From the human T2T-CHM13v2.0 reference genome, Homo sapiens: a DNA stretch of 64,000 nucleotides. Every line of letters starts with the position of its first letter. The first letter of the stretch is position 1. The notes beneath the pieces are model-generated. The model was not told the origin of the DNA. It made no database searches and saw only the letters and a program-made list of their open reading frames with translations. Made by a program: the position numbers and the translations under genes. Positions 5,170-46,980 of the stretch are shown here, one piece after another. Location: contig CP086569.2 in NCBI GenBank assembly GCA_009914755.4, forward strand, positions 14,976,001-15,040,000. Direction: 5' to 3'.

Positions 5170-5608
<439 letters not shown>

Positions 5609-8625: not shown

Positions 8626-11399
8626 CTATATTTACTTTTTGAAGAAGAGGACTCCTAGAGGGTCACTTCTTCCTTTTTATGCAATCTTCCCTTGGCCTGT
8701 GGCAAATCCTAAGCTTTGGAATTAGGTACACTTGGTTTAGAAGTCTCAGCAAATTTAAAAATATATTGTGTGATTTGTAACTAACCTGATTTGGAAATAC
8801 TGCAATAATAGTCATTTATACTTAAGAAATTCTGCCATGTTAAGATATTAAATAACTTACCTGAATTGGAGACTTGATGTCATCATATTCTCAGATTAGT
8901 TTACCTGCTATTATTTATTTTTTTGCACTAAATGGGAGAGTGGGTTGTTTTGTCTGATTGTGTTGGCATAATGAAAAATGTCTTTTATCTGGTGCTCCCA
9001 TGGAAAGGGAGAAAATAATTATCTTTGTTTACTTAGGGCATCCTCATTTGTTCTTCTTCAAAATAAATTTTCAGCCAAAGTAACCTTTGACTTACATTTG
9101 TTTGATTTACTTTATTTTTAGCATTTGAAATAACCCACCTGTAGGATAGCCTTGAGTTATTTTTATCAACTGTTTCTACCTACTCAGATTCACGTTCGCT
9201 CAGTTCTCACTGATGGTGTAAGTTCCTCAAGCTTTTTACTGTTGTGACAAATACATGTGTAATTAATCTTTCTCTGAGCTTTTGCATTCATAATTAAGAG
9301 GAGCACCTGACGTTGGGCATATTTTAGGTGGTAGGCAAATTTAGACATTAATGTGGAAGAGCTCAATGCTGTAATTCTTTTTCTCAGCTCTCACAATTTG
9401 CAAGGAAGCCATGGTGCTAGACTCTGTGGGGAACTCAAAGATGAGTAAGTCTGGGCTATGGAGAATATTGAATATAATTGAAATTAGTACAAGGAAATCG
9501 GGAAGATGGGCAGTCTAGCTCAATAGAATGAACACACATTTTGTAGGGCTACCCTGATTTCTCACCTAGAAGCTTCCAGCAGCCTATATCCACTCAAGCT
9601 CCCTGCAATCCACCCACCTCATAGCACTCAGAGTGATGTCACCCAAAGGCACATCCGATCACCTCATTTCCCCCTGGGGCAAGGACTCTCTGTTGACTTA
9701 GGATAATGTGGCCCAAATTTCTCAGCATGCATTACAAGGCCCCATTTGACGTAGCCCTACTTGTGGCACACCATGGGGACACATTTCAACTCTGTGCCCC
9801 TCTCTGAATTGTTCTTGCTGTTGTTTTTACTATCCTCTGCTTTCACCTTCATCCTCTTTCCAACTCCTGTTTATATTTAAGTCTCAGCATGAATATCAAA
9901 TTGGAGAGAAACCTTTGGGAACCCACGAGGTTGTAGGTTGACACCCACTGTATTGATTTCATGTTACTACTTTGATGAAGGACCTTTAAGTTAGTGGCTT
10001 AAAACAGCATGTGTTTATCATCTTCCAGCTCTAGAGGTCCTAAGAGTCTGGTCTAAAATGAATATGTCCATGCTCACTCTCTCCAGAGGTTCCAGGGAAG
10101 AATCCATTTCCTTACCTTTTTGGGTTTCTGGAGGGTGCCCAGACTTCTTGGTTCCTGACCCCTTGCTTGATTTCTAAAGCTGTAAGCACAGCATCTTCAA
10201 ATCTCTCTAACTCTGGCTCTCCTACCTCTCTCTTTCCCTTACAAGGACACTTGTAATGACCTTGGGCCTTGTCAGGTCATCTAGGATTATTTCCTCATCT
10301 CAAGGTCCTTAATTGCACCTACGAAGTTCCTTTTGACATAGAGGGTCTCCTAGTCACAGGTTCCAGGTACTAGAATGTGGACATCTTTGTGGGGAGTGGA
10401 GAGACTGCTGCAATAGTACAGCCACTTAACTGAAATTCTGCAATGTTAAGACATTGAATAATTTACCTGAATTTGAGACTTGATGTCATCATATTCTCAA
10501 ATGAGTTTACCTGTTGTTATTTATTTTTTGCACTAAATGAGAGTCAAACACACCCTCATGGGGGCTCTCATGGCCTCTGTGACCTGCTCTTGGAGGCACT
10601 TATGAATCTCATGAGCACAGGTTCTTTGTATCTTGTCCTCTCCAAGTCCGAGTGCCTAGCCAAGCACCTGGTGCCCAGTTAGTTGCTAAATCAATTCATT
10701 GTTTAATAAAAAACAGACTTGGGTGTAAATCCTGGCTCTGAGATGCATTTTTAATGAGATACTGGGATACATACTTGAACTCTCCAATCCTCTGTTTTCT
10801 TCTCTGTCAAGTGGGATGGTTATACCCACCTTGCAGGGTGATGTGAAGATTAACTGACCGTGTCACCTCTGTAGATCCCAGTACAGGGTAGACACAAACA
10901 CCCCTGAAAGACTTATAAAATGCCAGTGCCCAACACGAATCTCTGAAGACTGATTCAGCCTATGCAAACCGTAGGAATCGCCATTCTTATTTCTGTCACT
11001 GGTGCTGTCATTTGTAATCAGACCAGTTGCAGGGTTGTAATCAAACTGCTACTGAGACCACAAAATTGGGGTGAGAGAGAAGATTAATTGCACTGAAGAA
11101 ACCTTTTGAGAAAAATGTGCTCAATTAAAATTCCGATTAAGTCTTCAAGTATTTTTCAGATGGGGACAAAGGCCATTTAAGGTGGTTTACAAAGGAAAAA
11201 ACAAACAAACAAAATGATTAGGATTATGAGAATGTATAACTGGCAAAGGGCCTGAGAGAATGGTGGATGAGGTCCCTGCCAGGTGGAGAATTTGCATACC
11301 TTTAATAGTGTGACACTCTACTTTTGCTGTTGGGTCTGTGGAATCCCAAGTTTTATAAGTGGAATGATTTCTTTCTTTACAGTATATAGGGACACTTTT

Positions 11400-12830: not shown

Positions 12831-14924
12831 CTTTTATGTTTTTATCAGAGAAGTGATTGGAAAGATTTTATGTGATGTCCACACCTCGGTGACCAAGATT
12901 ATCCTGCATGGTAGTGGGAACCAATTCTGGTAACCAAGTCTCTTAACTTTTCAATCTAATGTTCTATTTTGTTTCTCCATTTTGTTCTGATGTCTTTGTA
13001 TCCAAACACATTTGAAAGTTGGTTGGTTGAGAATTCATTATCTCTAGGATATACTTCAGCTGACTGATTTCCAAATACCAATGTGCTCGCTGTGCTAATG
13101 CAGTGAATATTTGTAGGATGGAAAGGGTGTACTTCCTTGGAATTTTTTCTTGTTTTTCCCTCTAGTGCAAATATTAAGCTTCAGGTAATATGGAGGATGT
13201 ATGTTTTCATACAGCAGAAGGTACTTTTCTATAATCCTATTACAATATTATGTAGACTTCACAATGTAAAGGGAACAGATGGCCACCCATGCTGAGTGGT
13301 CTTAAATTGTCAAAGTCCAGTACAGACAGATAAGGCTTGCAGTAGGTAGACATGCATCTTCTGGTTTAGCTAGGAACAGATTGTGTAAGCTCCCAGAGGC
13401 AGGGAATTCTCTGGTTTGCTCACTGCCGTGGCTCAGTACCTGCCACACTGCCAGCCTTTTTGTGGGCACTATGTAATATGTGTGAAATGAATAGATATGA
13501 TGCAAGGTGGCATCTGTTGAACTGACCCTAAATTGGGGCCAGTGTAACAGTGATTTTTTTTTTTTTAATCAATCAAAAGAAAAAAAAGAAGCTGGGCCCT
13601 TCATACTCAGTAACCTCGGCAAAATCACATAGCTGGTTGGGCCCCAGCTGTGACTGTGGTCCATGTGTCTAGCACTGTCCCCTAACTATACCCCACGCTG
13701 GATAAAATGCCCATCTTCCCTGTCAATCCCTTTTATGTGGCAGACAGAAGAATGACACCCAAAGCTGCCCTTACCCTAATTCCCAGAACCTGTCCAGAAG
13801 TAAACTTACCTGGCAAAAGGGATTCTGTAGATGTGATTACGTTAAAGGTCTGAGATAGGAGGATGATCCCATATTATCCAAGTGGACCCTAACTAAGTAC
13901 ATGAATCTTGAAAAATGGACACCTTTCCTGGATTCTGTTTACCATGGCTGGTTTGGAGATGTAGCAACCACATGCCAGGGGAGCACAAAGGCTTCTAGGA
14001 AAGCAGCTCCCCACTGACAGCAGCAAAGAAAAGGGGGCATCTGCCCTGTAACCTGTGGAACTGAATTCTCTGAACAGCTGACTGAGCAAGGAGACACATT
14101 CTCCCCCAGAGCCTCCAGAAAGAGACGCAGCCCTGCCGACCCCTGGATTTTCCCCAGTGAGACCCATACCAGACTTTGGACTGTCAGACTGTATGACAAC
14201 ACGTTTGTCTTGTTTGAAGGGGTTAAAGTTATAGCAATTTATTATAACAGCAATAGCAAACTATTGCTGTTAAGTAAACATGGCATATTTCTAGTTTGTT
14301 TGTTTGGGATAATAACTATTCAGAAAATTGGGGTAATTACTTGAGTCCATTGAGGAGGAGAGAAATTGTTGACACAAACATGTAATACTTTGTAAGGAGA
14401 ATATTGAATAACTGACACTTACTATAGGTTCTACAAGAAACATTCTACATGTTTAGGAGGATATTTTAACCTATTTCAGAACTAAAAAGAAGGAAGGATG
14501 AATATTTCCTTGATACCAGATGGTGACTGTCAAACCATACGAAATCTATGACTGAAATACTTACGAAGCATTTAGCAGAAAAGAGTGAGAGTGCGGGAAG
14601 ACTAGGGATGATGTAGCAAAGGAAGAAGCATGAAGGGGAATTAAAATAAACCCCCTGCCAAGTAGGGACATGATCAAGTATATATGTTCCCATGAAAGAA
14701 GAGGCTGGTGGGAGAATGTTGTTTGAGGTGGTACCATGGGGGATGGTGGTTCTGACCTATCAGCTGGGGTTGGGGAGGCTGCCTGAAGGTCACCCTTAGG
14801 TAGAGACAGGAGGATCTGAGTTCGTGAAGCCATGTGTTGAAGCAACTCAATGATAGATGGCTGTGGGTCACCCAGGGCTTGGCACACCTGGGTCTGAACA
14901 CATGGCCTGGGGTCTTGATATGGT

Positions 14925-15055
14925 TTGGGTGTGTCCATGTTATGGGAGGGACCTGGTGGGAGATAACTGAATCATGGGGGCAGTTTCCCCCATCCCATAC
15001 TGTTCTTCTCATAGTGAATAAGTATCATGACTTCTGATGGTTTTATAAGAGACTT
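14925..15055 (+). mobile_element. MaLR LTR fragment (THE1/MST-like 5' portion)
   Basis: tgatatggtttgggtgtgtccatgttatgggagggacctggtgggagataactgaatcatgggggcag...ctcatagtgaataag...tctgatggttttataag, the THE1/MST signature. Confidence 0.5.
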
Positions 15056-17934
15056 TTATAAAATACCAGTGCCCAAGATGAATCTCCGAAGACTAATTCA
15101 GTCTGTGCAAACCATAGACGTCACTATTCCTATTTCTGTCACTGGTGCTGTCATTTGTAATCACGCCTGTTGCAGGGTCATAATCAAACTGCTATTGAGA
15201 CCATAAAATTGGGGTGGGAGAGAAGTATTTCAATAAACAAGTGATTGAGATAGATGTCCATAAAATTGACCAAAAGATGAAAAAAAAAATCCATTGTGAG
15301 AAATCCAACATATGTATGCTGGCTCTGGTAAAAATATATATTTTATATTAAAATAAATTTGTTCCAGGGGCAATCTCAACCACTTATTAGCAGACAGATC
15401 TTTGGGCAACTTTGTCTTTCTGAGAGAAGGTTATGAGAGAATTAAATGAGACACTATATTTGAGGGAAAGTCTACTTCATGAGTGTATGGTCTGTGCATT
15501 TGCATGTGGCTCCACTATCCAAGGAGCCTCACCATTGGTTTAATGCTCTGCTGCCAACATCTTAATATTCTCCATACTTTCTGAACAAGAGGCCCTGCAT
15601 TTTTATTTTGCACAGGACCCAGAAGTTATATGCCTAGTTCTGGCACCTCGCACCAGCATGGTGCAACAGAATCGTTTCACACATGGCTATTTCTTGCCTT
15701 CTTTCCTGCTGGAATCCCTGTGATATGCTATTATGCTTGCATTTGCCACTGCTGAAACCGGAGCCCCCAGAAGCTTTTTTGGGCACTTGTCAGGAGCCTG
15801 TTGCTATAGGAACTGTTAAAAACAGGCCCTGTGCCTTTGTAACCAATATGCTACCAACAACATTGGACAACCTTCTTTAGTCCCACTATTGAGGTAGGTG
15901 GAGGAGTGTCGGGTCCATTCCCACCACTGAGAAGGGAGAGAGATACACAACAGATGTTTGTTGAGTGTTAGCTCTGCCAAGGGTGGGACATACCAGGAGA
16001 GACACAAGTCCCTGTCCTTTCAGTGGGTATTTTGGTAATTAGGAAACAGGAGACATGACCAAGGAAGAACCACTGCATAAGAAAGCTATGGAAGTTCCCT
16101 ATACCTGGTGCAGAAATAAACATGGCAAGAGTGGGTTCCAACTGTGTCGGGTCACATCTCAAAAGAGGATTTTCCTATGGAAATTGCTATGCTGGTGACT
16201 GAGTCTGTAATTTAGTTGCAGTTCAGAATAAATAGGCTCTTGAGAGCTGACCCAAATCAATGTAGTTGCATGCATTTTTATAATCAAATAGAGTAGCTAT
16301 TTATTCAAAGCCTATTTATTCTGAGTTCTAAATAATTGTAAATGGATGATCCAGGAGTCAGGATTTGAGCCATAATTCATTTCTGAATAATGTATGATGA
16401 AAAAAAAATCTCATGAAATCCTTGACAGCAAACTGTTATAGAGTCCTTCACTTATCAGTTGAAAGATTATAGCTTAGAAAATATTCAGTATCTAATGCTG
16501 TATGTTTTCAAATAGAACACTAATGATTTGGAAACTACATGGCAAAATAAAACACTTACATTTCATAAAAGCTCTCAGAGCCCAGCTTCTTATGATGTAA
16601 GGAATGAAAGTTCCCTAAATGACAATCTTTTTCAATTTCTTAAGTGGGAGATAAAGCATAATTGGTGTCACTGCTTGCCAGGGCTCCATTACATATCCTG
16701 ACTACATCATTGGAACATAAAATATGTCATTCCCTTTGCAAATCCTGGTGACATACATGAGAACATCTCTGAGTTGTGGGCTAACCTCCCCTATCATAAT
16801 CAGAGGGCTTTGTTCCTCCAGAACATAGGAGTGCAACTGTAACATGATTTTTATGGTATACGATGGAACACTGCAAATAATTTATTTGTAACCTTTACAT
16901 ACTCAGGAATTTAGACCTAACTTAAATTTCAGTTTGTAATAACTTGTGTGTCTAATATTAAAATGCTGATTTTTACCCAAGGTAAATTGACTGATTCAGA
17001 GCATGTCAAGTTGTACCTATCTGTTTAGAGTCTTTTCAGGTATTAAAAATATTATCTTTTATGTAATTGTGTGCAGCTTGAAGTCTGTGAGACTTATTTA
17101 CTGAGATTTGGATAGTCAATAACATGTCAGTTATATTGTCTGAATGTTAATGCCTGTAGTTACGAGATGCTTCTTTATTTTATTCATCTAGGTCCTCCTA
17201 GCCAGCAGTTTCATGCCCATACATGCATGATTGAAGCCAGCGGAATACAAAGGGCAGATAAAGTTATTAAAACTGAGGAATTACCCTCCTCTGATACTAA
17301 TATGTTTCTTTTAAAACATTCAATTTTATAATTATTTTAATGGCTCCAAAATGTATGTTTTTTCCTCATAAATAGCTTTGTTTCTCTTTAAGAGGGAAAA
17401 ATACAGAGACAGTGGTAACTTACGAAGATCTTGTGAATGAGAATGATTGGACTGTGATGCTCTTGTTTTCATCTTTAAAATATATATTTCTTTTTGTTGT
17501 TGTTAGCAGTGAACGATTTTTTTTCCACCTAGTAAAGTCATACTCACAGCCCCTCTTAAGTAGAGTTACACCACCGTAAGGGTGGGAAAAAGCTTCAGGG
17601 CTCCACACCCTTGTCTTCCTCCAGACAATGCAGCATAGTTTCCTTCCAGCCTGCCCTTGGCACACTCCCGTCGAAGGCTCTCCACTTAACCAGACACATT
17701 GATCATCAGAATGCCAAAACCTGTTTTGTTTAAGGAGAGCGCTCCTCACTTGGGGCTGGCACTTAAGACAGGATGTCAATTCGTTTAGGGAAATTTAGAC
17801 ATGGGCATCCACCTAAAGTCTGCACTATGTGACCCAGCTTCCTTCTGTGATCTACACACGGTTTGTTCTGAACATTCACCATTCTACTCAAGGCAGCTCC
17901 TCTGCAGCACAGACACATGTTCAACATGAACATT

Positions 17935-18440
17935 TTATACTCAAATATGGTATCTAATTTACAAATGCCACAGATGTATATTTTATAACCAAATATGCCA
18001 TCTAATGTATACCAAAACCATACATTTTATAATCAAATACAGTAGCTATTTAACAGACACAAGAGATATGTATTTTATAATCACATAAAGTATCTGTTTA
18101 GCTCATACCAGAGATATACATTGTATCATCAAATGTAGTAACTATTTAATACATTACTGGAAATATGCATCTTATAATGAAATGGAATAGCTATTTAGCA
18201 CATACAGAGATATATATTTTAAAATCAAAGAGAGTATCTGTTAGCACATACCAGAGATATGTATTTTATAATCAGAGTATCTGTCTAACATGTACCAGAT
18301 ATATGTATTTTTTAATCAAATGTAGTACCTGTTTAACACATGCCAGAGATATATATTTTATAATCAAATAAGCACATACTGGAGATATGAATTTTATAAT
18401 AAAGTATCTGTTTAGCATATATCTAATAAAGTTTCACATA
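17935..18440. repeat. Minisatellite: about 11 degenerate tandem units of roughly 46-49 bp
   Basis: Recurring unit attttataatca(a/c)a...agta(t/g)ctgtttagcacataccagagatat(g/a)t. I parsed the units by hand. The ORF at 18165-18371 is an artefact of this array. Confidence 0.75.
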
Positions 18441-20807
18441 AATCAGAGATCATACATATATTCAGGATGAATAAATCACATATTTTATAAATATATTATA
18501 TATTTATTAATAACGAGTACACACAAAGTGCTTTAACATTCATTCATTCATTCATTCACCCACTCACTTTTAGGGCCCAGGACATGGACATAGAGTAGTT
18601 TTTCTCCGTGTCCCTATTATGCCAGCTCAAGGAATTGATGATCTCACAACAAAAGAACCGTGTTTTAAGAACTCCTTGGCTAATAGAATCGAGGCAGTGT
18701 CTCTGTTCTGATCTCATCTGTCCTTATGATTGTCTTTTCTTGAGCTTTCCTGACCTTTGGAATTCTTTCTTTTCTCTCTAGTGCAAAACATAACAGGCTT
18801 CAGGTAATATGAGAACGTATGCTTTGATACAGCAGAAGGTAATGGGTTTAAAGTAGAAAATTCAACATATTTGGGCACTGTCATTTGAAATACTTAATGA
18901 AATGTTGAATTGACAAGTATAATTACTTTGCCACTTAATAAATTGGAATATTTTTCCTCGATGTCCCTATTACACCAGTCTTTCACTTGCAAATTAAGAA
19001 CCTTTCTGTCTTAGAAGGGGAAGCAAGTGGTAGAGGCTCCAGGTTCTCTTCCAATATACACTTCTTCTTCCTTAGTAAAGGAATCCCAATTTTTATCTGG
19101 ACCTATGGCTGTACAGCTAGGTTATATATCCCAGCTTCCCTTGGAGTTAGGTGTGGCCATTTATTTCACTGTCGGGCAATGACAGGTGAGCTGAATAACT
19201 GTGGGACTTACAGTACAAGGAAGGTTGTATACTTTTCCATTTTTCCTGTTACCCAAAACTTAGATACGATTACTGGAGCTCCAGCAGCTATTGTTCATCA
19301 TGAGGTCAAGGATCACACCCTGAAGATGGCCAAATAGTGAGCTGGAAATACCAAAGTCCTAAATGATTTGAGGAGTCTACCTTACCAGCCGGCCCTCTAT
19401 ATTCCTGTTACCAGACAAAAGTAGTAAAACTTTTGTTATTATTGTATACAACAGAATTCAATCCTATCTGCTGTAGGGGTTCTTACTTCCAATTTTCCAC
19501 GTGAGGAAATTGAGATACAGAGATGTCAATCTACTTCACTCAAGTCACCAAACTTGGAAGGGGGCAACTTCCCCAGGATGGTCCTTAATATTTCTATTTT
19601 TCCTATCCCTGTTGCTCCATTTTGCCCTTTAGTTCTTTTCAATGCATTTTAATTGCCCTTTAGTTCTTTTCAATTTTCAAACAATGCATTCCTCGTGTTA
19701 TTCCGGTCCAGCCCCAGTGCCACATCATGGGTGTGTGACAGGAAGACTAGCAATGTTTAAAAGGGCATGAGTGAGGAATCAGAGTTTCTAGTGAACTTAC
19801 CATGATGTGATTGAGTACTTTGGACAGGAAGAGAGTGACAGCCACAATTAAACAGCAGGAAATGCACAGGCCCAGAACTATGAGGAAGATGGAAAGTGAC
19901 CCACCCAAGCCCCTTGACCCTGGACAATGTCCCAGGACAGTGTCTTGCTGATCATGTGACTGTGCATAGGAGGCACATCATAATTACTTGTAGAGTTGAA
20001 CCTTATATCTTCAGACAGCATTCAGTTTTCTTCTGTTGTTTAATGGAGTCTGCAATAAAGGGGCCTCGTGCACATGACCAACAGGGAGCCACAGAAGCCT
20101 TGCATTGTTTATAACACCAGAAAGGGACAATTTGCAAGTCCTGTTCTCTGTTTAACACTAATTCTTCTTAAGTCTGATCACCTCCCACAGTCTAATAGGG
20201 TTTTTATGATGAGTTATTTCTTTCCTTTCCATTTTTCAGGAAAGTGTGAATGTTGCTTTAAATGCAGTGTTTTTCTGTGGGTATAAACTTTTTATGTGAT
20301 TTAAATTACATAAAAATTTCAGTCGTGCTGAAGACACCTCTCATATTCTAGACTTTGGTGTTTTCGTAGAGCTCAGGTTTTCATCTGTTTGTTGTCTTCG
20401 GTTGTTTCACCGAAGTGAGGAAGGTGGAGGTGGCTGAAGGGGAAAAGGGACTTAATGTTACTTATATTTGTGGCACTGAGTCAGGAAAGGCCGAGAAAAT
20501 GGAACTAAGCCAATGGGGGTGAAGTCTACTCTCTGCTTGTGACTTGTTAAATACACAGACCTTATTTCTAAATTGTTTCTCCTTGTTTCTAAATTGCAGA
20601 TATTAGTGGATTTTATTAAGGTATATTTATGGATCCAATATGTGCATTAAAATTTATTTATCAATCACTTAGAAGCATCATACCTTAATAAGACTTAAGA
20701 TTAACTTCAACCATGGCAAATACCAGTATGAGTCCTTTTGAAACCCTCTACCAGTACTTTAAAATGACGTGATGTCTTTGAAAATTTTTTTATTTTTATT
20801 TTTTTAA

Positions 20808-24513: not shown

Positions 24514-24955
<442 letters not shown>

Positions 24956-25199
24956 TAAGTTTTAGGGTACATGTCCACAATGTGCAGGTTAGTTACATAT
25001 GTATAAATGTGCCATGCTGGTGTGCTGCACCTATTAACTCGTCATTTAGCATTAGGTGTATCTCCTAATGCTATCCCTCCCCGCTCCCCCCACCCTACAA
25101 CAGTCTCCAGAGTGTGATGTTCCCCTTCCTGTGTCCACGTGTTCTCATTGTTCAATTCCCACCTATGAGTGAGAACATGTGGTGTTTGGTTTTTTGTCC

Positions 25200-28978
<3,779 letters not shown>

Positions 28979-29041
28979 TATGATGTTAGCTGGTTATTTT
29001 GCTTGTTAGTTGATGCAGTTTCTTCCTAGCCTCGATGGTCT

Positions 29042-30058
29042 TTACATTTTGGCATGATTTTGCAGTGGCTGGTACCGGTTGTTCCTTTCCATGTTTAGTG
29101 CTTCCTTCAGCAGCTCTTTTAGGGCAGGCCTGGTGGTGACAAAATCTCTCAGCATTTGCTTCTCTGTAAAATATTTTATTTCTCCTTCACTTATGAAGCT
29201 TAGTTTGGCTGGATATGAAATTCTAGGTTAAAAATTCTTTTCTTTAAGAATGTTGAATATTGGCCCCCACTCTCTTCTGGCTTGTAGAGTTTCTACCGAG
29301 AGATGCACTGTTAGTCTGATGGGTTTCTCTTTGTGGGTATCCCAACCTTTCTCTCTGACTGCCCTTAATATTTTTTCCTTCATTTCAACTTTGGTGAATC
29401 TGACAATTATGTGCCTTGGAGTTTCTCTTCTCGTGGAGTATCTTTGTGATGTTCTCTGTATTTTCTGAATCTGAATGTTGGCCTGCCTTGCTAGTTTGGG
29501 GAAGTTCTCCTGGATAATATCCTGCATAGTGTTTTCCAACTTGGTTCCATTCTCCCCGTCACTTTCCAGTACACCAATCAGAGGTAGATTTGGTCTTTTC
29601 ACATAGTCCCATATTTCTTGAAGGCTTTGTTCATTTCTTTTTATTCTTTTTTCTCTAAACTTCTGTTCTCGCTTCATTTCATTCATTTCATGTTCCATCA
29701 CTGATACCCTTTCTTCCAGTTGATCACATTGGCTCCTGAGGCTTCTGCATTCTTCATGTCATTCTCGAGCCTTAGCTTTCAGCTCCATCAACTCCTTTAA
29801 GTACTTCTCTGTATTGGTTATTCTAGTTATACATTTGTCTAAATTTTTTTCAAAGTTTTCAGCTTCTTTGCCTGTGGTTTGAATTTCCTCCTGTAGCTCA
29901 GAGAAGTTTGATCGTCTGAAGGCTTCTTCTCTCAGTTCATCGAAGTCAGTCTCTGTCTACCTTTGTTCCATTGCTAGTGAGGAGCTGCATTCCTTTGCAG
30001 GAGGAGAGGCATGCGGCTTTTTAGAGTTTCCAGTTTTTCTGCTCTGTTTTTTCCCCAT
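29042..30058 (-). pseudogene. L1 ORF1 remnant, disrupted
   Basis: Track ORF 29228..29701 translates to MMEHEMNEMKREQKFREKRIKRNEQSLQEIWDYVKRPNLPLIGV..., which is the ORF1p C-terminal two thirds. The reverse-complemented ATG context (aaccacaaagatgggg) lies at about 30058. The 63-bp inter-ORF spacing to the ORF2 ATG at 28978 is preserved. Confidence 0.75.
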
Positions 30059-32861
30059 CTTTGTGGTTTTATCTACTTTTCATCTTTGATGATGGTGATA
30101 TACAGATGCGTTTTTGGTGTGGATGTCCTTCCTGAAAATGTACCAAACATTAGAACACATAGGTGGCTATAACATGCAACTGAAAACATAGTATAAAACC
30201 CCAAACCAATGCATGCAACCAAAAATATAGTACAAAATCACAAACCACTGCAAATCCATTCATGTATTCAGTTTTTAGTGTGTGAGGAGGGCTTTACAAA
30301 GACTGTCAGCTACAAACAACTTAATGGTGAAATGTAAGGAATGATATTGTGGTAAGCCATGTGATCTCCTTCAGCTCCTTCTCTCAGTTTCTGAGTGTTA
30401 AGGATGTTGTATTTGAAAGCAGACACTCCTGCTCTTTTACCACACACGAATTCTAGTTAAGCACCTGGTTCCCAGTTGGGAGAAAAATGATGACAATCTC
30501 CTCTGTTTTAAAGACACATGTCAAAGCTACATATCTGTGAATGACAACCTAATCAAAGCCCCTTCTGTTTCCTAATTTTTAAATGCTTACTTTAGGAGGA
30601 AAGATCTTGGTACTCTAAAATAAGCACAACATGCTGACCTACACTGAGATATTTTAAGGTTAAGACATCAATAGAAATATAATTGTAAATCCTAGTGGGC
30701 TTTTCTACCAGTTGTTAAGCAGGTATTCATATTCTGTTCATCTTTGAAAATATGTGGTTAGGTGGGCTGACTTTCCTGTCCACCACTCCTGTGGTCAGAA
30801 ATTCACATATAGCTTTTGACTCCCCCAGAACTTACTACTAAGAGCCTACCGTTGACTGGAAGACATACCAATAAGAATACAACAGTCCATTAGGACATAT
30901 TTTGTATGTTATGTAAATTATACACTGTATTCTCACAGTCAAGTAAGCTACAGAAAAGAAAATACTATTAAGAAAATCATAAGGAAGATAAAATATATTC
31001 ACTGTTTATTTAGTGAAAGTGGATCATCATAAGGATTTTTGTCCTCATCTTCACATTGACTATGCTGAGGAGGTGGAGGAAGAGGAGGGTTGGTCTTGCT
31101 GTCTCAGGGGTGGCAGAGACAGAAGACATAGAGGAAGTCTAAGGGAAGGCAGGAGAGGCAGGTCACATGGTGTACTTTTACTAAATAAATCCACATGGAC
31201 CCTCATAGTTCAAACCCGTTTTGTTCAAGGGTGAAGTGTACACTGACTCTAAGTAGGGTCCTTTAGCAGCAGGTAATAGACCCTGGCTGTGTTAAGTCAT
31301 ACAGAGCAGGTACTGGAAGCATATGATGTGAACATTTCCTACTATTGGCAGCTGGTAGGAGAACAGGCTTCTAAAACTCAGCTATTTGGCAACAGGTTGG
31401 CCATCCTAGGTCACTGTGGTTGCCACTGTTTCTAAGGTGACATTGACTTTCCTCAACCATTCTCTGTCCCATGGTGGCTTCCTTTTCAGGCACAGGTCAG
31501 GTGATCAGAGTCCATTTTCCAGTGGCATGACACACACCTTAGGTCCTCAGGGATATGTGCCCTTGCTTGTGCCACATAAAGTTGCAATGGTTTCCTTAAC
31601 TATTCCACTAGTGCTGGAATAATCACCATGATTATAAGTCCTCCCCAACCATGTGAAACAGTGAGCTTATTAAACCTCTTTCTTTTTTAAATTTCCCAGT
31701 CTCAGGCATGCCTTTTTCAGCAGTATTGAAATGGATACACAAACGTTTGTTCCTCCAGTCCTGATCAAAGTCTTTAACCATGGGTTGTCTATTTCTCAAA
31801 TTGTTCCTCTCCTATCCTGTGGCACAGATTAGCCTGAGAGCCTGGTTCCTTCAGTTCTAGAGCTACGGGGGCACAGCTAAGTCATGGAAACACCCATGCT
31901 TCATGTTAAGATCATGCCACACATTCTCCATGGCACCTAAATGGTGGCCCTCCATTTTCCATGTTCCTCAATTTACCCAAAGAACCTATCCTCTTCAGTT
32001 TTTCAAGGACATTGACTATTCACCAAAATTATTCCTTATCACTTTCTTAATGACATTGTCTAATTCCAATAAAGTGTCTCATTTCCTTGCACTAAGTAAT
32101 AATTCACATATTAAAAATAAACACAAATACTACAGAGTAATAATAAAATCAAAAGTCTTGATAGATTTTCTAAAAAGAATTTGATTAGAAACTTCCAACA
32201 ATAACTGTCTGAAACCTGTTTTGCATTATAAACTTTTCAGCATTTTATTCAAAGCAATTTTCTTTAATTAAAAACTTAACAGTGTAATCAAAAACACCTT
32301 GATACAAAAATTCAATTTTCCTCTTACTTGGGGGGAGAAAGGGGCTTGTTTCAGTCTCATCAGGTTTGCCAGGGACAATCAGAATAAAAACTCTGAAATT
32401 TAAGCTGTAGGATATTGCTCTACAGGTAAATATACACTATTTTTATAATCTAGGTTTTCTTATCACAGATACAATTACCAATAACATGAAAATCAGTAGG
32501 AAAAATTTAAACTTCAGAAATTACCTCCACCTATACACTAGATTAGGGTTTCTCAGCCTTGGTACTGCTGACAGTTGGGGCCATGACTTCTTAGTTTTTG
32601 GGGGCAGTCCAGTGCATTCCAAGACATTTAAAATCATTTCTGGCCTCTACCCACCAGACACCAGCAGCACCACTCAGACGTGATAACCAAAAATGTCTGG
32701 GTATAATATCTTTCCATATGGATAACTACTAGACTAGATTAAGGGAATCTGTTTTATGTCAATTATACATTTGGGTACTTAAGTTTTTCTCCACTATTTT
32801 AATATATTTCATTACCTCCATCTTTCTAAGCAAATAAGAGATTTAACTTAATATTGCAGAT

Positions 32862-33827
32862 TAGAGCCAAGATGGCTGAATAGGAACAGCTCCGGTCTAC
32901 AGTGTGAGTGACGCAGAAGACGGGTGATTTCTGCACTTCCATCTGAGGTACCGGGTTCATCTCATTAGGGAGTGCCAGACAGTGGGAGCAGGACAGTGGG
33001 TGCAGTGCACCATGCTTGAGCCGAAGCAGGGTGAGGAACTGCCTCACTCAGGAAGCACAAGGGGTCAGGAAGTTCCCTTTCTACTGCACTTTTCCAACGG
33101 GCTTAAAAAACGGCACACCAGGAGATTATATCCCACAACTGGCTCAGAGGGTCTTATGCCCATGGAGTATCGCTGATTGCTAGCACAGCAGTCTGAGATC
33201 AAACTGCAAGGCAGCAGCGAGGCTGGGGGAGAGGCACCCACCATTGCCCAGGCTTGCTTAGGTAAACAAAGCAGCCAGGAAGCTCGAACTGGTTGGAGCC
33301 CACCACAGCTCAAGGAAGCCTGCCTGCCTCTGTAGGCTCCACCTCTGGGGGCAGGGCATGGACAAACAAAAAGACAGCTGTAACCTCTGCAGACTTAAAT
33401 GTCCCTGTCTGACAGCTTTGAAGAGAGCAGTGGTTCTCCCAGCATGCAGCTGGAGATCTGAGAATGGGCAGAATGCCTTCTCAAGTGGGTCCCTGACCCC
33501 TGATCCCCGAGCAGCCTAACTGGGAGGCACCCCCCAGTAGAGGCAGACTGACACCTCACACGGTTGGGTACTCCTCTGAGACAAAACTTCCAGAGGAACG
33601 ATCAGACAGCAGCATTCACGGTTCACAAAAATCTGCTGTTCTGCAGCCACCGCTGCTGATACCCAGGCAAATAGGGTCAGGAGTGGACCTCTAGCAAACT
33701 CCAACAGACCTGCAGCTGAGGGTCCTATCTGTTAGAAGGAAAACTAACAAACAGGAAGGACATCCACACCAAAAACCCATCTGTACATCACCATGGTCAA
33801 AGGCCAAAAGTAGATAAAACCACAAAG
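32862..33827 (+). promoter_or_regulatory. L1 5'UTR, the region that in intact L1s holds the internal sense promoter and the antisense promoter
   Basis: Full-length L1PA 5'UTR sequence is present. Its activity here is unknown, since CpGs are partly decayed. Confidence 0.6.
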
Positions 33828-34844
33828 ATGGGGAAAAAACAGAGCAGAAAAACTGGAAACTCTAAAAAGCAGAGTGCCTCTCCTCCTGCAAAGGAACACA
33901 GCTCCTCACCAGCAATGGAACAAAGCTGGATGGAGAATGACTTTGATGAGTTGAGAGAAGAAGGCTTCAGACGATCAAACTACTCCAAGCTACAGGAGGA
34001 AATTCAAACCACAGGCAAATAAGTTGAAAACTTTGAAAAAAATTTAGACAAATATATAACTAGAATAACTAATACAGAGAAGTGCTTAAAGGAGCTGATG
34101 GAGCTGAAAGCTAAGGCTCGAGAACTACAGGAAGAATGCAGAAGCCTCAGGAGCCGATGTGATCAACTGGAAGAAAGGGTATCAGTGATGGAAGAGGAAA
34201 TGAATGAAATGAAGTGAGAAGGGAAGTATAGAGAAAAAAAGAATAAAAAGAAACGAACAAAGCCTCCAAGAAATATGGGACTATGTGAAAAGACCAAATC
34301 TACGTCTGATTGGTGTACTGGAAAGTGATGGGGAGAATGGAACCAAGTTGGAAAACACTCTGCAGGATATTATCCAGGAGAACTTCCCCAATCTAGCAAG
34401 GCAGGCCAACATTCAGATTCAGGAAATACAGAGAATGCCACAAAGACACTCCTCGAGAAGAGAAACTCCAAGACACATAATTGTCAGATTCACCAAAGTT
34501 GAAATGAAGGAAAAAATGTTAAGGGCAGTCAGAGAGAAAGGTTGGGATACCCACAAAGGGAAGCCCATCAGACTAACAGCGGATCTCTCGGCAGAAACTA
34601 CAAGCCAGAAGAGAGTGGGGGCCAATATTCAACATTCTTAAAGAAAATAATTTTCAACCCAGAATTTCATATCCAGCCAAACTAAGCTTCATAAGTGAAG
34701 GAGAAATAAAATCCTTTACAGAGAAGCAAATGCTGAGAGATTTTGTCACCACCAGGCCTGCCCTAAAAGAGTTCCTGAAGGAAGCACTAAACATGGAAAG
34801 GAACAACTGGTACCAGCTGCTGAAACATCCTGCCAAATTGTAAA
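33828..34844 (+). pseudogene. L1 ORF1 remnant with a premature stop at 34020-34022 (GGCAAAtAAG)
   Basis: Track ORFs 33828..34022 (MGKKQSRKTGNSKKQSASPPAKE...) and 34285..34641 (MKRPNLRLIGVLESDGENGTKLENTLQDIIQENFPNLARQANIQIQEIQR...). The length and the 63-bp spacer to the ORF2 ATG at 34907 are preserved. Confidence 0.8.
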
Positions 34845-34906
34845 GACCATCAAGGCTAGGAAGAAACTGCATCAACTAACAAGCAAAATAACCAGCTAAC
34901 ATCATA

Positions 34907-35791
<885 letters not shown>

Positions 35792-36639
35792 TAACCTTTT
35801 TAATCAGGTAATCAAATACATATGTGCACATATTTACTTATATTTATATTACCTGTAATATTTTTGAGGTTTTTATTCCATTTATTTGTTAAAATTCTCA
35901 TGGTACAATTAAATATTTCCACAGTCACCAATGGATCACATTCTGCAGTTTGAAAACATTCTAATGCAAACTTGAACAACACAGACACTGAAATTCTAAA
36001 CTTGTGTTTAAAAGACTTTACAAAAAATATAGCATCTAAAAATAATTAGTACTGTATTTGAAATAATATCCTTTTCTTTCTCCTCTTAACTTTGTCTTAG
36101 ATACATTTTTTAAAACTTTATGACTACTGAGTATCTCATAGAAATAATTTCTACTCTAAAGTATGATTTTTTTTTTCTATTTATATTGTGTTTAACTATG
36201 TGACATACGAGTGCTAGGGCTAAAAAACCATTAGTTTATATATTTCGCCTATATAAAGCCACTAAAATGGTGATAGTAATTTCATGATGAAATTTTTTAA
36301 TCAACTGGTTATATAAACCAAAATGTATTCTTATTTTTTAGCCACATTGTGGACATTCAGATAAAGAAAATATACCTGTAAGTATGCAAAAACTTTATAT
36401 CTAATGTAGGTCACCATCATGTTGCAAAAATAAACATAAAATCAATTGGCTAAACTTGTCCTTGAACATTTAGTATCCCGGACTAATAGTATGGAAATGT
36501 GCAATTTATTTTATTTTCATTTGTTGTTTTTATTTTACATACAATAATACACAATATCTTGTATTTTAAATTGTGTTTGACAATGTCTTCACTATCTGTC
36601 AGTGAAATATAATTAACTTACAGTGAAAAAAAGAATGCA

Positions 36640-36835
36640 TATTGAGTTAGAATTTGCTGTCAACATTTTAAAATATTTAAAATATTTTAAATGTTTTAAA
36701 AATATATTAATTTAAAATATTTTAAACTTTTTGTGATTTAAAAATATTTAAATTTAAAATTTAAAATATTGCCAACATTTTAAATGTTTTAAAAATATTT
36801 AAATTTAAAATTTTTAAAAATGTTTTAAAGATCTT
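36640..36835. repeat. AT-rich low-complexity tandem duplication (about 60 bp repeated twice), built from (tttaaaa)/(aatattt) motifs
   Basis: caacattttaaaatatttaaaatattttaaatgttttaaaaatat... recurs as ccaacattttaaatgttttaaaaatatttaaatttaaaatttttaaaaatgttttaaa. Confidence 0.5.
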
Positions 36836-45000: not shown

Positions 45001-46636
45001 ATAATCAATATAATATTTTAAAATATGCACAGGTTGTCTCTAATGACTAGTTCTGCCATTTCTTACAGATCAGTCTAATTTTTCTTGTTATATGTTAGCT
45101 TTATATATATATATTTATATATCATAAAAAGAGAAAACTAAAATACATAATACCAGAAAATTAAATCAATGTGTAATTAAATCTTTAAATCAATATGTAG
45201 ACAAAACTGTATAAAATATAACAAGGAGGCAAAAAAAGAAATTAAAAATTTAGGCATGAGAAATTGAATAGGACAGAGAAAAGATATTAAACAATTTTAA
45301 GGCAACACTATGTGCAAATCCCCAAAGACAAATTAGAAAATATTAGAGAAATATCATTAGAAAATATAAATTATCAAAATTACACCTATAGTTAAAGTTG
45401 GAATGTGTATAAATCAATAAAGAAAAAAATGGAAAGGCAAAACAAAAAAAAAAGGAAATTACATTCGAGAGTCTGGGATCACACAGAGTACATTGTAACT
45501 CAAATAAAAAAATAAAATCAATTTATGCCTTGCATATGCACACACATACACAGTGGGAACCCATTGTATTGTCAGACTCTTGATCTGATGAATACAGAGT
45601 GGAAAGGCATAGTACATTTCAGTGCATTTAACTCTTGCACCTTGCTTTTAACTCTTTTTCAGAAAGCTAAAATGTAGAACAGATACAAAGGGAGCTGTTC
45701 TATTTGGAAAGGAGAATTGTGGGTGGGAGAGAAGGCAGGACAGCAAGTGGAACATCACCTACTGTTCTCAGTTGCTTGGCAGAACCTCAACCCTCATTAA
45801 ATCCACTTCATTGCCTCTTCCACAACTGCACCTGAACAGCCATATATAGCTGGAGAAAAACTCACAACCCAGTGGATCAGTCTCTTTAAAGACAATATCA
45901 TTATTTTCAAGGGGGCTTTCCTGAGCTTATTTACTTCCCTAAATACCCAAAGCATTCAGTCATCAAAATTGATTTCATGCTGGAACCACCTAGGTAGTTT
46001 TAAAAGACACTGACGCTGGGGTCGCAATCCCCAAAAAAATTCTTAGGAAATTGGTCTTGGGTGTGGCCCGGGCATGCCAATTATTAAAATAGTTCTGATT
46101 AATTCCAGAGGCAAATTTGAGAGAAGCTTACTTAGAAATCACTTGGAGATGTTACTGAAATACAGATTTTGACTTTTTTGATGTGGGGCAATTCTTCATT
46201 TCTAACAAGCTTCAAGTCACACCGATGTTGCTGGTCTATAGACCACATTCTGAATAGCAGGGACCTAGAGTCTTATTTCTCACCTTCTCCTGTCTCCTCA
46301 GAAATGTCCAATAGTCCTTCTGTCTTCCATTCTCACTCTAAGTGCATGACCTTGGTTCCCATTTTACTAGGAAAATCCAAGCCCATCAGTAGGGAGATTT
46401 TACAAGCTCTGACCTCCACCCTACCCACCTACAAGCCCATCATGCCCACATACTCTGCCTTCACTCCTGTGACTTCAAACCACCTTTGTTCCTATCTAAT
46501 GAAAGCACCCATCTTTTACAGCAGAGTGGACCTCTCTATCTCTTTGACAAATCTCCCTCTCTCTGTCATCACCTCATCACCAAGGATGAGACTACTACAT
46601 TCAGAAGCATGCTAGAACCCTATAATCCTAACAGAA

Positions 46637-46980
46637 AGCAAGGAAGGAAGGAAGGAAGGAAGGAAGAAAGGAAAGAAGGAAGGAAGGAAGGAAGGAAGGA
46701 AGGAAGGAAGGCAGGCCAGCCAGAGGGGAGGGGAGGGGTCACCTCTTCTGTAAGGAGCAATATGGAGGGAGGGAGGGAGGGAGAGAGGGAAGGAGGAGAG
46801 GGGAGGGGGGTCACCTGTCCCGTAAGGAGCAATATGGAGTGAGGGAGGGAGGGAGGGAAAGAGGGGAGGGGAGGGGAGGGGAAAGAAGGAGGGAAGGAAA
46901 AAAGAAAGGGGGGAAGGGATGGAGGGAGGGAGAGAGGAAGGAAGGAAGGAGGAAGGGAGGGAAGGAAGTAAGGAAGGAAT
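46637..46980 (+). repeat. Compound GGAA/GGGA polypurine microsatellite, about 340 bp, with two embedded copies of a roughly 35-bp non-repeat motif
   Basis: The top strand runs (aaggaagg)n... and (gggagggagggagg). Two embedded copies, gtcacctcttctgtaaggagcaatatggagggagggagg and gtcacctgtcccgtaaggagcaatatggagtgagggagg, sit about 70 bp apart. The overlapping track ORFs 46486..46842 on the plus strand and 46620..46994 on the minus strand are translation artefacts of this array. Confidence 0.9.

What the first reader, a model, noticed from the sequence alone, without database searches (positions are those of the whole stretch)
17935..18440. Minisatellite of about 48-bp units, roughly 11 copies, in otherwise unique DNA
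About 500 bp consists of degenerate tandem copies of attttataatcaaa..agtatctgtttagcacataccagagatatgt. Units vary by substitutions and small deletions, as in an old VNTR. Minisatellites of this size are often length-polymorphic and can act as recombination hotspots or fragile, secondary-structure-prone sequence. Every unit carries the conserved cores ccagagatat and tattttataatc. The array is not part of any interspersed repeat family that I recognise.
Basis: seen in the sequence. Interest (0 to 1): 0.5.

Follow-up and report, generated by a model that had tools for sequence, protein, structure and literature searches.

The report
Decayed 48-bp AT-rich minisatellite
This is a real but old and heavily mutated tandem repeat of about eleven 48-base units in non-coding primate DNA, apparently cut in two by a later 1.6-kb insertion; it is an ordinary genomic fossil with no sign of function or current instability.

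Summary
The tandem array is real. Tandem Repeats Finder gives period 48 and score 328, against 79 or less in composition-matched surrogates. A wraparound alignment places it at 17932-18421: 10.6 units, 80% identical to the consensus. A further degenerate half unit lies at 17913-17931.

The window is primate DNA (Alu, L1, a THE1-like LTR). The array is 26% G+C, has no CpG, no higher-order repeat and no coding signal.

Units are 75% identical pairwise. The closest pair differs by K2P 0.15, and neighbouring units share at most 12 exact bases. Unit turnover therefore stopped tens of millions of years ago.

The suggestions of secondary structure, fragility and a recombination hotspot found no support:
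- the DNA fold z-score is +0.5;
- there is no PRDM9 13-mer and no Jeffreys core in the array;
- the unit does not resemble the FRA16B unit.

One new point: a detached 34-bp partial unit at 16270-16303 ends at unit position 29, and the array resumes at position 30 at 17913. This suggests a 1,609-bp insertion split the array.

Length polymorphism and genome-wide dispersal could not be tested, because no primate genome is in any collection. Verdict: ordinary.

The parts
17932..18421 (+). Main tandem array: 10.6 units of a roughly 48-bp AT-rich unit. TRF consensus: ATTTTATAATCAAATAGAGTATCTATTTAACACATACCAGAGATATGT. Unit starts: 17932, 17980, 18024, 18072, 18120, 18169, 18216, 18263, 18307, 18355, 18391.
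   Evidence: TRF period 48, score 328. Wraparound alignment: 415/517 columns match. nhmmer unit hits. Surrogate controls.
17913..17931 (+). Degenerate half unit (unit positions 30-48) that forms the true left edge of the main array.
   Evidence: Wraparound alignment with softer penalties starts at 17913, at unit position 30. The repeat finder pairs 17913-17949 with 17961-17997 at spacing 48, 73% identity (D1). Self-BLAST matches 17915-18039 to 18288-18406.
16270..16303 (+). Detached partial unit (unit positions 45-48 followed by 1-29), same strand, 1.65 kb upstream. It ends exactly where the main array resumes in the unit's register.
   Evidence: 27/28 identical to the consensus, BLAST E 9e-8. 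32/35 identical to 18019-18052. The 27-mer with up to 3 mismatches occurs only here and in the array, and in 0 of 100 shuffles. nhmmer E 1.6e-5. Wraparound score 52 against a null of 17.7 +/- 2.9, maximum 30.
16304..17912 (.). 1,609 bp of non-repeat DNA between the detached partial unit and the array. Inferred to be a later insertion, or the product of a rearrangement, that split one unit between positions 29 and 30.
   Evidence: This is an inference from the exact phase continuity. No target-site duplication, terminal inverted repeat or terminal poly-A was found. It has no other copy in the window. Its ORFs have no Pfam or protein homologues.
18422..18519 (+). Possible, very degenerate right-hand tail of the array (about 2 more units). 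Not statistically supported.
   Evidence: It aligns only with softened penalties. There is no nhmmer hit beyond 18421. The repeat finder lists 18481-18508 at 71% (D3).

Best explanation
This is a fossil minisatellite in non-coding primate DNA.

Origin (inferred): a roughly 48-bp AT-rich sequence, whose consensus contains two short palindromes, was amplified head to tail to about 12 copies. The likely mechanism is replication slippage and/or unequal sister-chromatid exchange.

Decay (shown): amplification and homogenisation then stopped. The copies have since diverged by ordinary point mutation (transitions to transversions 2:1) and small deletions of 1-12 bp. They are now about 75% identical to each other, with the edge units most diverged.

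Split (inferred, about 55% likely): at some later point 1,609 bp of unrelated DNA came to lie inside the leftmost unit, detaching a 34-bp piece (16270-16303) from the rest (17913-18421).

Function: the array has no detectable function. It is most likely stable, or only rarely variable, in length today.
For: - Periodicity is far above chance.
- Mean pairwise unit identity is 0.75, with no trend with distance and no higher-order repeat. Units u1 and u2, at the edge, are the most diverged.
- There are 48 transitions against 24 transversions, K2P to the consensus is 0.18, there is no CpG, and G+C is 25.7%.
- The closest unit pairs have K2P 0.15-0.19. Adjacent pairs are 64-84% identical.
- The longest exact match between neighbouring units is 12 bp.
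- The consensus unit and consensus dimer fold better than shuffles (z -2.1 to -4.5), but the real array does not (z +0.51).
- The detached partial unit ends at unit position 29 and the array restarts at position 30, on the same strand.
- The only ORF inside the array (68 aa) has no homologue and no Pfam match above threshold.
- There is no Rfam match.
- Context is ordinary primate intergenic or intronic DNA with Alu, L1 and a THE1-like LTR.
Against: - No orthologous or allelic sequence could be obtained, so the age, the stability and the insertion event are inferred from one sequence only.
- The phase match at the split has a chance probability of roughly 1/48 to 1/10, depending on the tolerance allowed. 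It rests on a weakly conserved 19-bp half unit (11/19 matches).
- The 1.6-kb segment shows no target-site duplication or other insertion hallmark.
- In a population study, tandem-repeat loci with low motif purity (below 0.5) were more mutable, not less (bioRxiv 10.1101/2024.08.07.607105, read). Degeneracy alone therefore does not prove stability.
Confidence: 0.82

Rival explanations
1. It is an active VNTR: the array still gains and loses units, is length-polymorphic in the population, and may be a local recombination or instability site.
For: - It has 10-11 copies of a 48-bp unit, and copy number correlates with tandem-repeat mutation rate (bioRxiv 10.1101/2024.08.07.607105).
- VNTRs as a class are often polymorphic (PMC13060803).
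- The consensus unit has hairpin potential.
Against: - No pair of units is closer than K2P 0.15.
- Neighbouring units share at most 12 exact bases.
- The real array has no excess fold stability.
- There is no PRDM9 motif or Jeffreys core in the array.
- About 60% of human tandem-repeat loci are invariant in length across 832 genomes.
Confidence: 0.12
2. The array is the internal tandem-repeat region of an old interspersed element (DNA transposon, LTR or LINE untranslated region), or a member of a dispersed satellite-like family. On this reading the detached copy at 16270 is a second relic of that family rather than a split-off piece.
For: - A second, isolated copy of part of the unit exists 1.65 kb away.
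- It sits in the spacer of a 27-nt inverted repeat with a stable fold (z -4.1), which is MITE-like.
- Many human minisatellites derive from transposable elements (own knowledge).
Against: - There is no further copy on either strand in 64 kb.
- The flanks of the detached copy and of the array share nothing.
- The array's flanks have no other copy in the window.
- No TIR or TSD brackets the array.
- The exact phase continuity between the detached copy and the array is expected under a split, not under two independent insertions.
- There is no significant match to a MIR consensus written from memory.
Confidence: 0.12
3. It is a functional non-coding element, for example a tandem array of transcription-factor sites, a matrix-attachment region, or a proto-fragile AT-rich minisatellite of the FRA16B/FRA10B type.
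For: - It is AT-rich (74% A+T).
- Its copy number is similar to normal FRA16B alleles, which have 7-12 copies (PMC2875025).
- Each consensus unit carries two short palindromes.
Against: - Units decay at a neutral-looking rate and spectrum, and no sub-motif is kept intact; the cores are exact in only 3 of 11 units.
- The unit has no similarity to the FRA16B unit (score 20 against shuffles 18.4 +/- 4.5).
- The unit is 77% A+T, against 94% for FRA16B.
- The real array has no excess structure.
Confidence: 0.03

Closest known systems
Ordinary degenerate ('ancient') minisatellites of mammalian genomes, as catalogued by Tandem Repeats Finder in simple-repeat tracks and VNTR catalogues
   Same: Head-to-tail units of tens of bp, about 10 copies, about 0.5 kb. 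It is non-coding, embedded between Alu and L1 in AT-rich DNA, and its units have diverged by substitutions and small indels.
   Different: Nothing essential. The one particular feature is the detached partial unit 1.6 kb upstream that continues the array's register.
AT-rich minisatellites of the rare fragile sites FRA16B (33 bp) and FRA10B (about 42 bp)
   Same: It is an AT-rich minisatellite with a unit of a few tens of bp. Its copy number is in the range of normal FRA16B alleles (7-12 copies; PMC2875025).
   Different: There is no sequence similarity. The unit is 77% A+T against 94%. There are no perfect copies. The array has no excess hairpin stability. There is no evidence of expansion.
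Classical hypervariable GC-rich minisatellites (Jeffreys-type, e.g. MS32, CEB1)
   Same: Tandem organisation and unit size class.
   Different: The array is 26% G+C. It lacks the GGGCAGGANG core and has no PRDM9 13-mer. Unit purity is low. Those loci owe their instability to nearly identical units next to meiotic hotspots (own knowledge).
Minisatellites derived from transposable elements (e.g. the SVA VNTR region, tandem repeats inside LTRs or L1 UTRs)
   Same: A partial unit is also found outside the array.
   Different: There is no recognisable element around the array, no terminal repeats and no further copies in 64 kb. This cannot be settled without a repeat library.

Membership tests
Minisatellite (tandem repeat with unit of about 10-100 bp) | Head-to-tail copies of one unit with significant periodicity | tested here: met
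   TRF period 48, score 328. 10.6 units in the wraparound alignment. Surrogate controls.
Minisatellite (tandem repeat with unit of about 10-100 bp) | Unit length in the minisatellite range and array length of 0.1 to tens of kb | tested here: met
   Units of 31-49 bp, modal 48. Array of 490 bp, or 509 bp with the left half unit.
VNTR in the strict sense (variable number of repeats between individuals) | Alleles that differ in unit number in the population | not testable with these tools
   No second copy of the locus could be retrieved: pattern scans, exact ORF look-ups and a protein search all found nothing. Indirect signs point to low mutability.
Hypervariable GC-rich (Jeffreys-type) minisatellite | G+C-rich units carrying the shared core GGGCAGGANG | tested here: not met
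   G+C is 25.7%. There is no core match inside 17913-18421, even with 1 mismatch allowed.
Hypervariable GC-rich (Jeffreys-type) minisatellite | High similarity between neighbouring units | tested here: not met
   Adjacent units are 64-84% identical. The longest exact match at the unit lag is 12 bp.
AT-rich fragile-site minisatellite (FRA16B/FRA10B type) | Very A+T-rich unit related to the 33-bp FRA16B repeat (about 42 bp at FRA10B) | tested here: not met
   77% A+T against 94%. The local alignment score is no better than shuffles (183 of 500 shuffles score as well).
AT-rich fragile-site minisatellite (FRA16B/FRA10B type) | Stable hairpin or cruciform formation by the repeat tract | tested here: not met
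   DNA fold of the array: -33.4 kcal/mol against shuffles -35.6 +/- 4.2, z +0.51. Only the idealised consensus folds well.
Satellite DNA with higher-order repeats | Long arrays with a multi-unit higher-order period | tested here: not met
   The array is about 0.5 kb. Unit identity does not depend on distance (0.74-0.78 at distances 1-7).
Interspersed repeat with internal tandem repeats / dispersed family | Copies of the unit or its flanks at many unlinked loci; element termini (TIR, LTR, TSD) around it | tested here: inconclusive
   Within 64 kb there is only the array plus one partial unit. The flanks are unique within the window. No termini were found. A genome-wide search and a Dfam comparison are not possible with these tools.
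Protein-coding tandem repeat | Open frame across units with homologues or domain matches | tested here: not met
   Only one 68-aa ORF lies fully inside the array (a 48-aa antisense ORF overlaps its right-hand units). It has no homologue. Its Pfam hits are below cut-off (16.1 bits against 25).

The most novel reading that the evidence does not exclude
The 48-bp unit, the detached copy inside a 124-bp hairpin-forming inverted repeat (16212-16335), and the two palindromes in the consensus unit could be relics of an uncatalogued ancient palindromic (MITE-like) mobile element whose subterminal repeat expanded into the array. Alternatively, the 1.6-kb interruption without a target-site duplication could record a template-switch or break-repair insertion inside a minisatellite.
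Probability: 0.05. Interest if true: 0.25.

Novelty: already known. Interest (0 to 1): 0.08.

Why it matters
It matters little. Degenerate minisatellites of this size are common in primate genomes and are routinely listed by Tandem Repeats Finder. This one shows no coding, RNA or regulatory signal and no instability signature. Its practical value is as a caution for annotation and read mapping. It is also a small worked example of a tandem array that seems to have been split by a later 1.6-kb insertion, which gives a relative order of events that primate genome alignments could test. The pure (ATCT)23 and (AAGG)20 microsatellites elsewhere in the window are far better candidates for polymorphism.

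Tried and rejected
1. Other copies or alleles of the locus. Two unit patterns and one flank pattern were scanned in viral, prokaryotic-genome and metagenome contigs, with 0 matches. These collections hold no primate DNA for this locus, so the result says nothing about dispersal in the primate genome.

2. Orthologous contigs through ORFs. Exact look-ups of three ORFs in and beside the array found none on record. A protein search with nine neighbouring ORFs concatenated gave no hit with E <= 0.001.

3. Origin of the unit from MIR. The unit contains AGTAGCTA..TTTA.., which resembles the end of MIR. BLAST against a MIR consensus written from memory gave nothing significant in 15.5-19 kb (best E 0.36), so this was rejected.

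4. FRA16B relationship: rejected.

5. A larger tandem duplication of about 355 bp to the right of the array, suggested by two repeat pairs with spacings of 353 and 357. No autocorrelation peak was found, and there was only one 33-nt match at E 0.004, so this was rejected.

6. Structured RNA. No Rfam family passes threshold in the window. At a relaxed threshold there is only a 24.9-bit plant MIR390 hit on the hairpin at 16220-16330 (gathering score 77), which is spurious.

7. Phage DNA similarity: none.

8. Six-frame Pfam scan of 15.6-20.4 kb. Individual ORFs gave nothing above cut-off.

9. Target-site duplication, TIR or poly-A at the ends of the inferred 1.6-kb insertion: none seen.

10. The paper by Legendre et al. 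2007 on predicting minisatellite variability is not held.

Full report
**What the window is.** The 64-kb window is primate DNA. BLAST with an Alu consensus written from memory finds about 17 Alu copies; the best is 95% identical at 5170-5450. There is a nearly full-length L1 on the minus strand, with ORF2 and ORF1 pieces at 25200-29701, and a second L1 fragment on the plus strand. A THE1/MST-like LTR start lies at 14917. G+C is 30-43%. No Rfam family passes its threshold anywhere in the window. The finding therefore lies in ordinary AT-rich, repeat-rich intergenic or intronic DNA.

**Checking the observation.**
- Tandem Repeats Finder reports 18024-18370 with period 48, 7.3 copies, 73% matches and score 328. 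This is the highest score of any long-period array in the window.
- A wraparound (cyclic) alignment to the TRF consensus ATTTTATAATCAAATAGAGTATCTATTTAACACATACCAGAGATATGT extends the array to 17932-18421. It has 10.6 units of 48, 44, 48, 48, 49, 47, 47, 44, 48, 36 and 31 bp, with 415 of 517 aligned columns matching.
- With softer penalties, and independently in the repeat finder, a further degenerate half unit at 17913-17931 joins on the left.
- A possible tail to about 18519 is seen only with soft scoring and is not supported by the profile search.
- The periodicity is far above chance. Autocorrelation at lag 48 is 0.475, against a maximum of 0.427 in 1000 Markov-1 surrogates. The TRF score of 328 compares with 0 in window surrogates and 79 or less in 64-kb surrogates with the array's own composition.
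Each core is exact in 3 units; the others have 1-4 mismatches.

**Anatomy.**
- The array is 25.7% G+C and has no CpG. The 5.5 kb around it is 38.8% G+C.
- Mean pairwise unit identity is 0.75. It does not depend on the distance between units (0.74-0.78 for distances 1-7), so there is no higher-order repeat. The two leftmost units are the most diverged.
- Differences from the column consensus are 48 transitions and 24 transversions, giving K2P 0.18, plus deletions of 1-12 bp.
- The closest pairs of units (u7-u10, u4-u7, u7-u8) still differ by K2P 0.15-0.19. Adjacent units are 64-84% identical.
- The longest exact match between neighbouring units is 12 bp. The longest anywhere in the array is 22 bp, at lag 191.
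- By inference, at mammalian neutral rates of about 1-2 x 10^-9 per site per year (own knowledge), the last detectable unit duplication is some tens of millions of years old.
- A variant pattern separates units u3, u5 and u6 (CTATTTA) from u4, u7, u8, u9 and u11 (CTGTTTA) (alignment). This is what local duplication within an array produces.

- Secondary structure: as single-stranded DNA the array folds at -33.4 kcal/mol, against -35.6 +/- 4.2 for shuffles (z +0.51). The idealised consensus does contain two short palindromes (AAATAGA-GTA-TCTATTT and ACATA-N7-TATGT) and folds better than shuffles (z -2.1 for one unit; -2.7 and -4.5 for dimers of the two strands). Hairpin potential may therefore have existed when the array formed, but mutation has erased it.
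- Recombination: the PRDM9 13-mer CCNCCNTNNCCNC occurs 5 times in the window, and the nearest copy is more than 11 kb away. The Jeffreys core does not occur in the array.
- Fragility: normal FRA16B alleles carry 7-12 copies of a 33-bp, 94% A+T unit, and expanded alleles carry up to 2000 (PMC2875025). The present unit is 77% A+T and has no similarity to it.
- Coding: only one 68-aa ORF lies fully within the array (a 48-aa antisense ORF overlaps its right-hand units). It has no homologue and no Pfam match above cut-off.

**A detached partial unit, and a likely split.** A BLAST of the consensus and an nhmmer profile of the units find nothing else in the window on either strand, with one exception: 16270-16303, on the same strand, 1.65 kb upstream.

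- It matches the consensus at 27 of 28 positions (BLAST E 9e-8) and matches 18019-18052 at 32 of 35. Its nhmmer E-value is 1.6e-5.
- The 27-mer with up to 3 mismatches occurs nowhere else, and in none of 100 shuffles.
- Its wraparound score is 52, against a null of 17.7 +/- 2.9 with a maximum of 30.
- Its own flanks share nothing with the flanks of the array.
- In the unit's register the piece covers positions 45-48 and 1-29 and stops exactly at position 29. The main array's left edge at 17913 starts exactly at position 30.
- Removing 16304-17912 (1,609 bp) would rebuild one complete 49-bp unit.
- The chance of such a phase match is roughly 1/48 if an exact match is required, and about 1/10 with a tolerance of two bases.

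I therefore think it more likely than not (about 55%) that the array was once continuous, with about 12 units, and was split by a later insertion or rearrangement. The weak points are these. The 19-bp half unit is only 58% identical to its counterparts. The 1.6-kb segment has no target-site duplication, terminal inverted repeat or terminal poly-A. It has no second copy in the window.

The detached piece lies in the spacer of a 27-nt imperfect inverted repeat (16212-16238 / 16309-16335). That repeat folds with z -4.1 and remains unexplained.

**What could not be tested.** No collection available here contains this primate locus. Unit and flank patterns found nothing in viral, prokaryotic or metagenome contigs. 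ORF look-ups and a concatenated-ORF protein search found nothing. Length polymorphism, genome-wide dispersal of the unit, membership of a Dfam family and the age of the array thus remain inferences.

As a base rate, 60.5% of 4.4 million human tandem-repeat loci were invariant in length in 832 genomes, and a further 37.9% had fewer than 0.02 alleles per haplotype (bioRxiv 10.1101/2024.08.07.607105). The same study found loci of very low motif purity more mutable, so degeneracy alone is not proof of stability.

**Verdict.** The reading as an old, degenerate minisatellite is supported. The suggested hotspot, fragile-site and structure-prone properties are not supported for this array. It is an ordinary genomic fossil of a well-known kind. 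The only point of mild interest is the apparent split by a 1.6-kb insertion, which primate genome alignments can test directly.

Noticed in passing
window 16212-16335: A 27-nt imperfect inverted repeat (arms 16212-16238 and 16309-16335, 81% complementary, 70-nt spacer) encloses the detached partial unit. The RNA fold gives z -4.1. The only Rfam hit is a sub-threshold plant MIR390 match (24.9 bits against 77). The motif AGC(C)TATTTATTC occurs twice in direct orientation and once inverted here. A 12-mer, AAT(T/G)TAGTTGCA, repeats at spacing 50 (D16).
   Followed up: partly
window 18757-18841 and 13137-13223: A 90-bp match at 81% identity (E 3e-14), same orientation, 5.6 kb apart. Both copies read polypyrimidine tract-AG | 19-22 nt | GTAATATG, so they look like a small exon with its splice sites, or a fragment of an interspersed repeat.
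   Followed up: partly
window 61368-61459: A pure (ATCT)23 microsatellite, 90% matches, TRF score 156. It is a much better candidate for length polymorphism than the minisatellite.
   Followed up: no
window 46636-46979: (AAGG)20 is followed by G-rich GGAG/GGAA runs with a 72-bp period (2.2 copies, score 234). This is a purine-rich tract with strong strand asymmetry. Two PRDM9-type 13-mers lie at 46416 and 46798.
   Followed up: no
window about 24900-36800: A nearly full-length L1 on the minus strand (ORF2 pieces 25200-28978, ORF1 29228-29701) lies head to head with a 5' L1 fragment on the plus strand (ORF1 34285-34641, endonuclease 35018-35794). AT skew flips sign between them. An AT-rich low-complexity tract with a 44-51-bp period follows at 36667-36829.
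   Followed up: no
window 14917-15257 and 10913-11118: A THE1/MST-like LTR start (tgatatggtttgg...) lies at 14917; part of it matches 60650-60756 and 61703-61807. The adjoining 15056-15257 matches 10913-11118 at 82%.
   Followed up: no
window 19622-19674: A perfect 22-nt direct repeat, TTGCCCTTTAGTTCTTTTCAAT, occurs twice at spacing 31 (D11). This looks like a recent small duplication.
   Followed up: no
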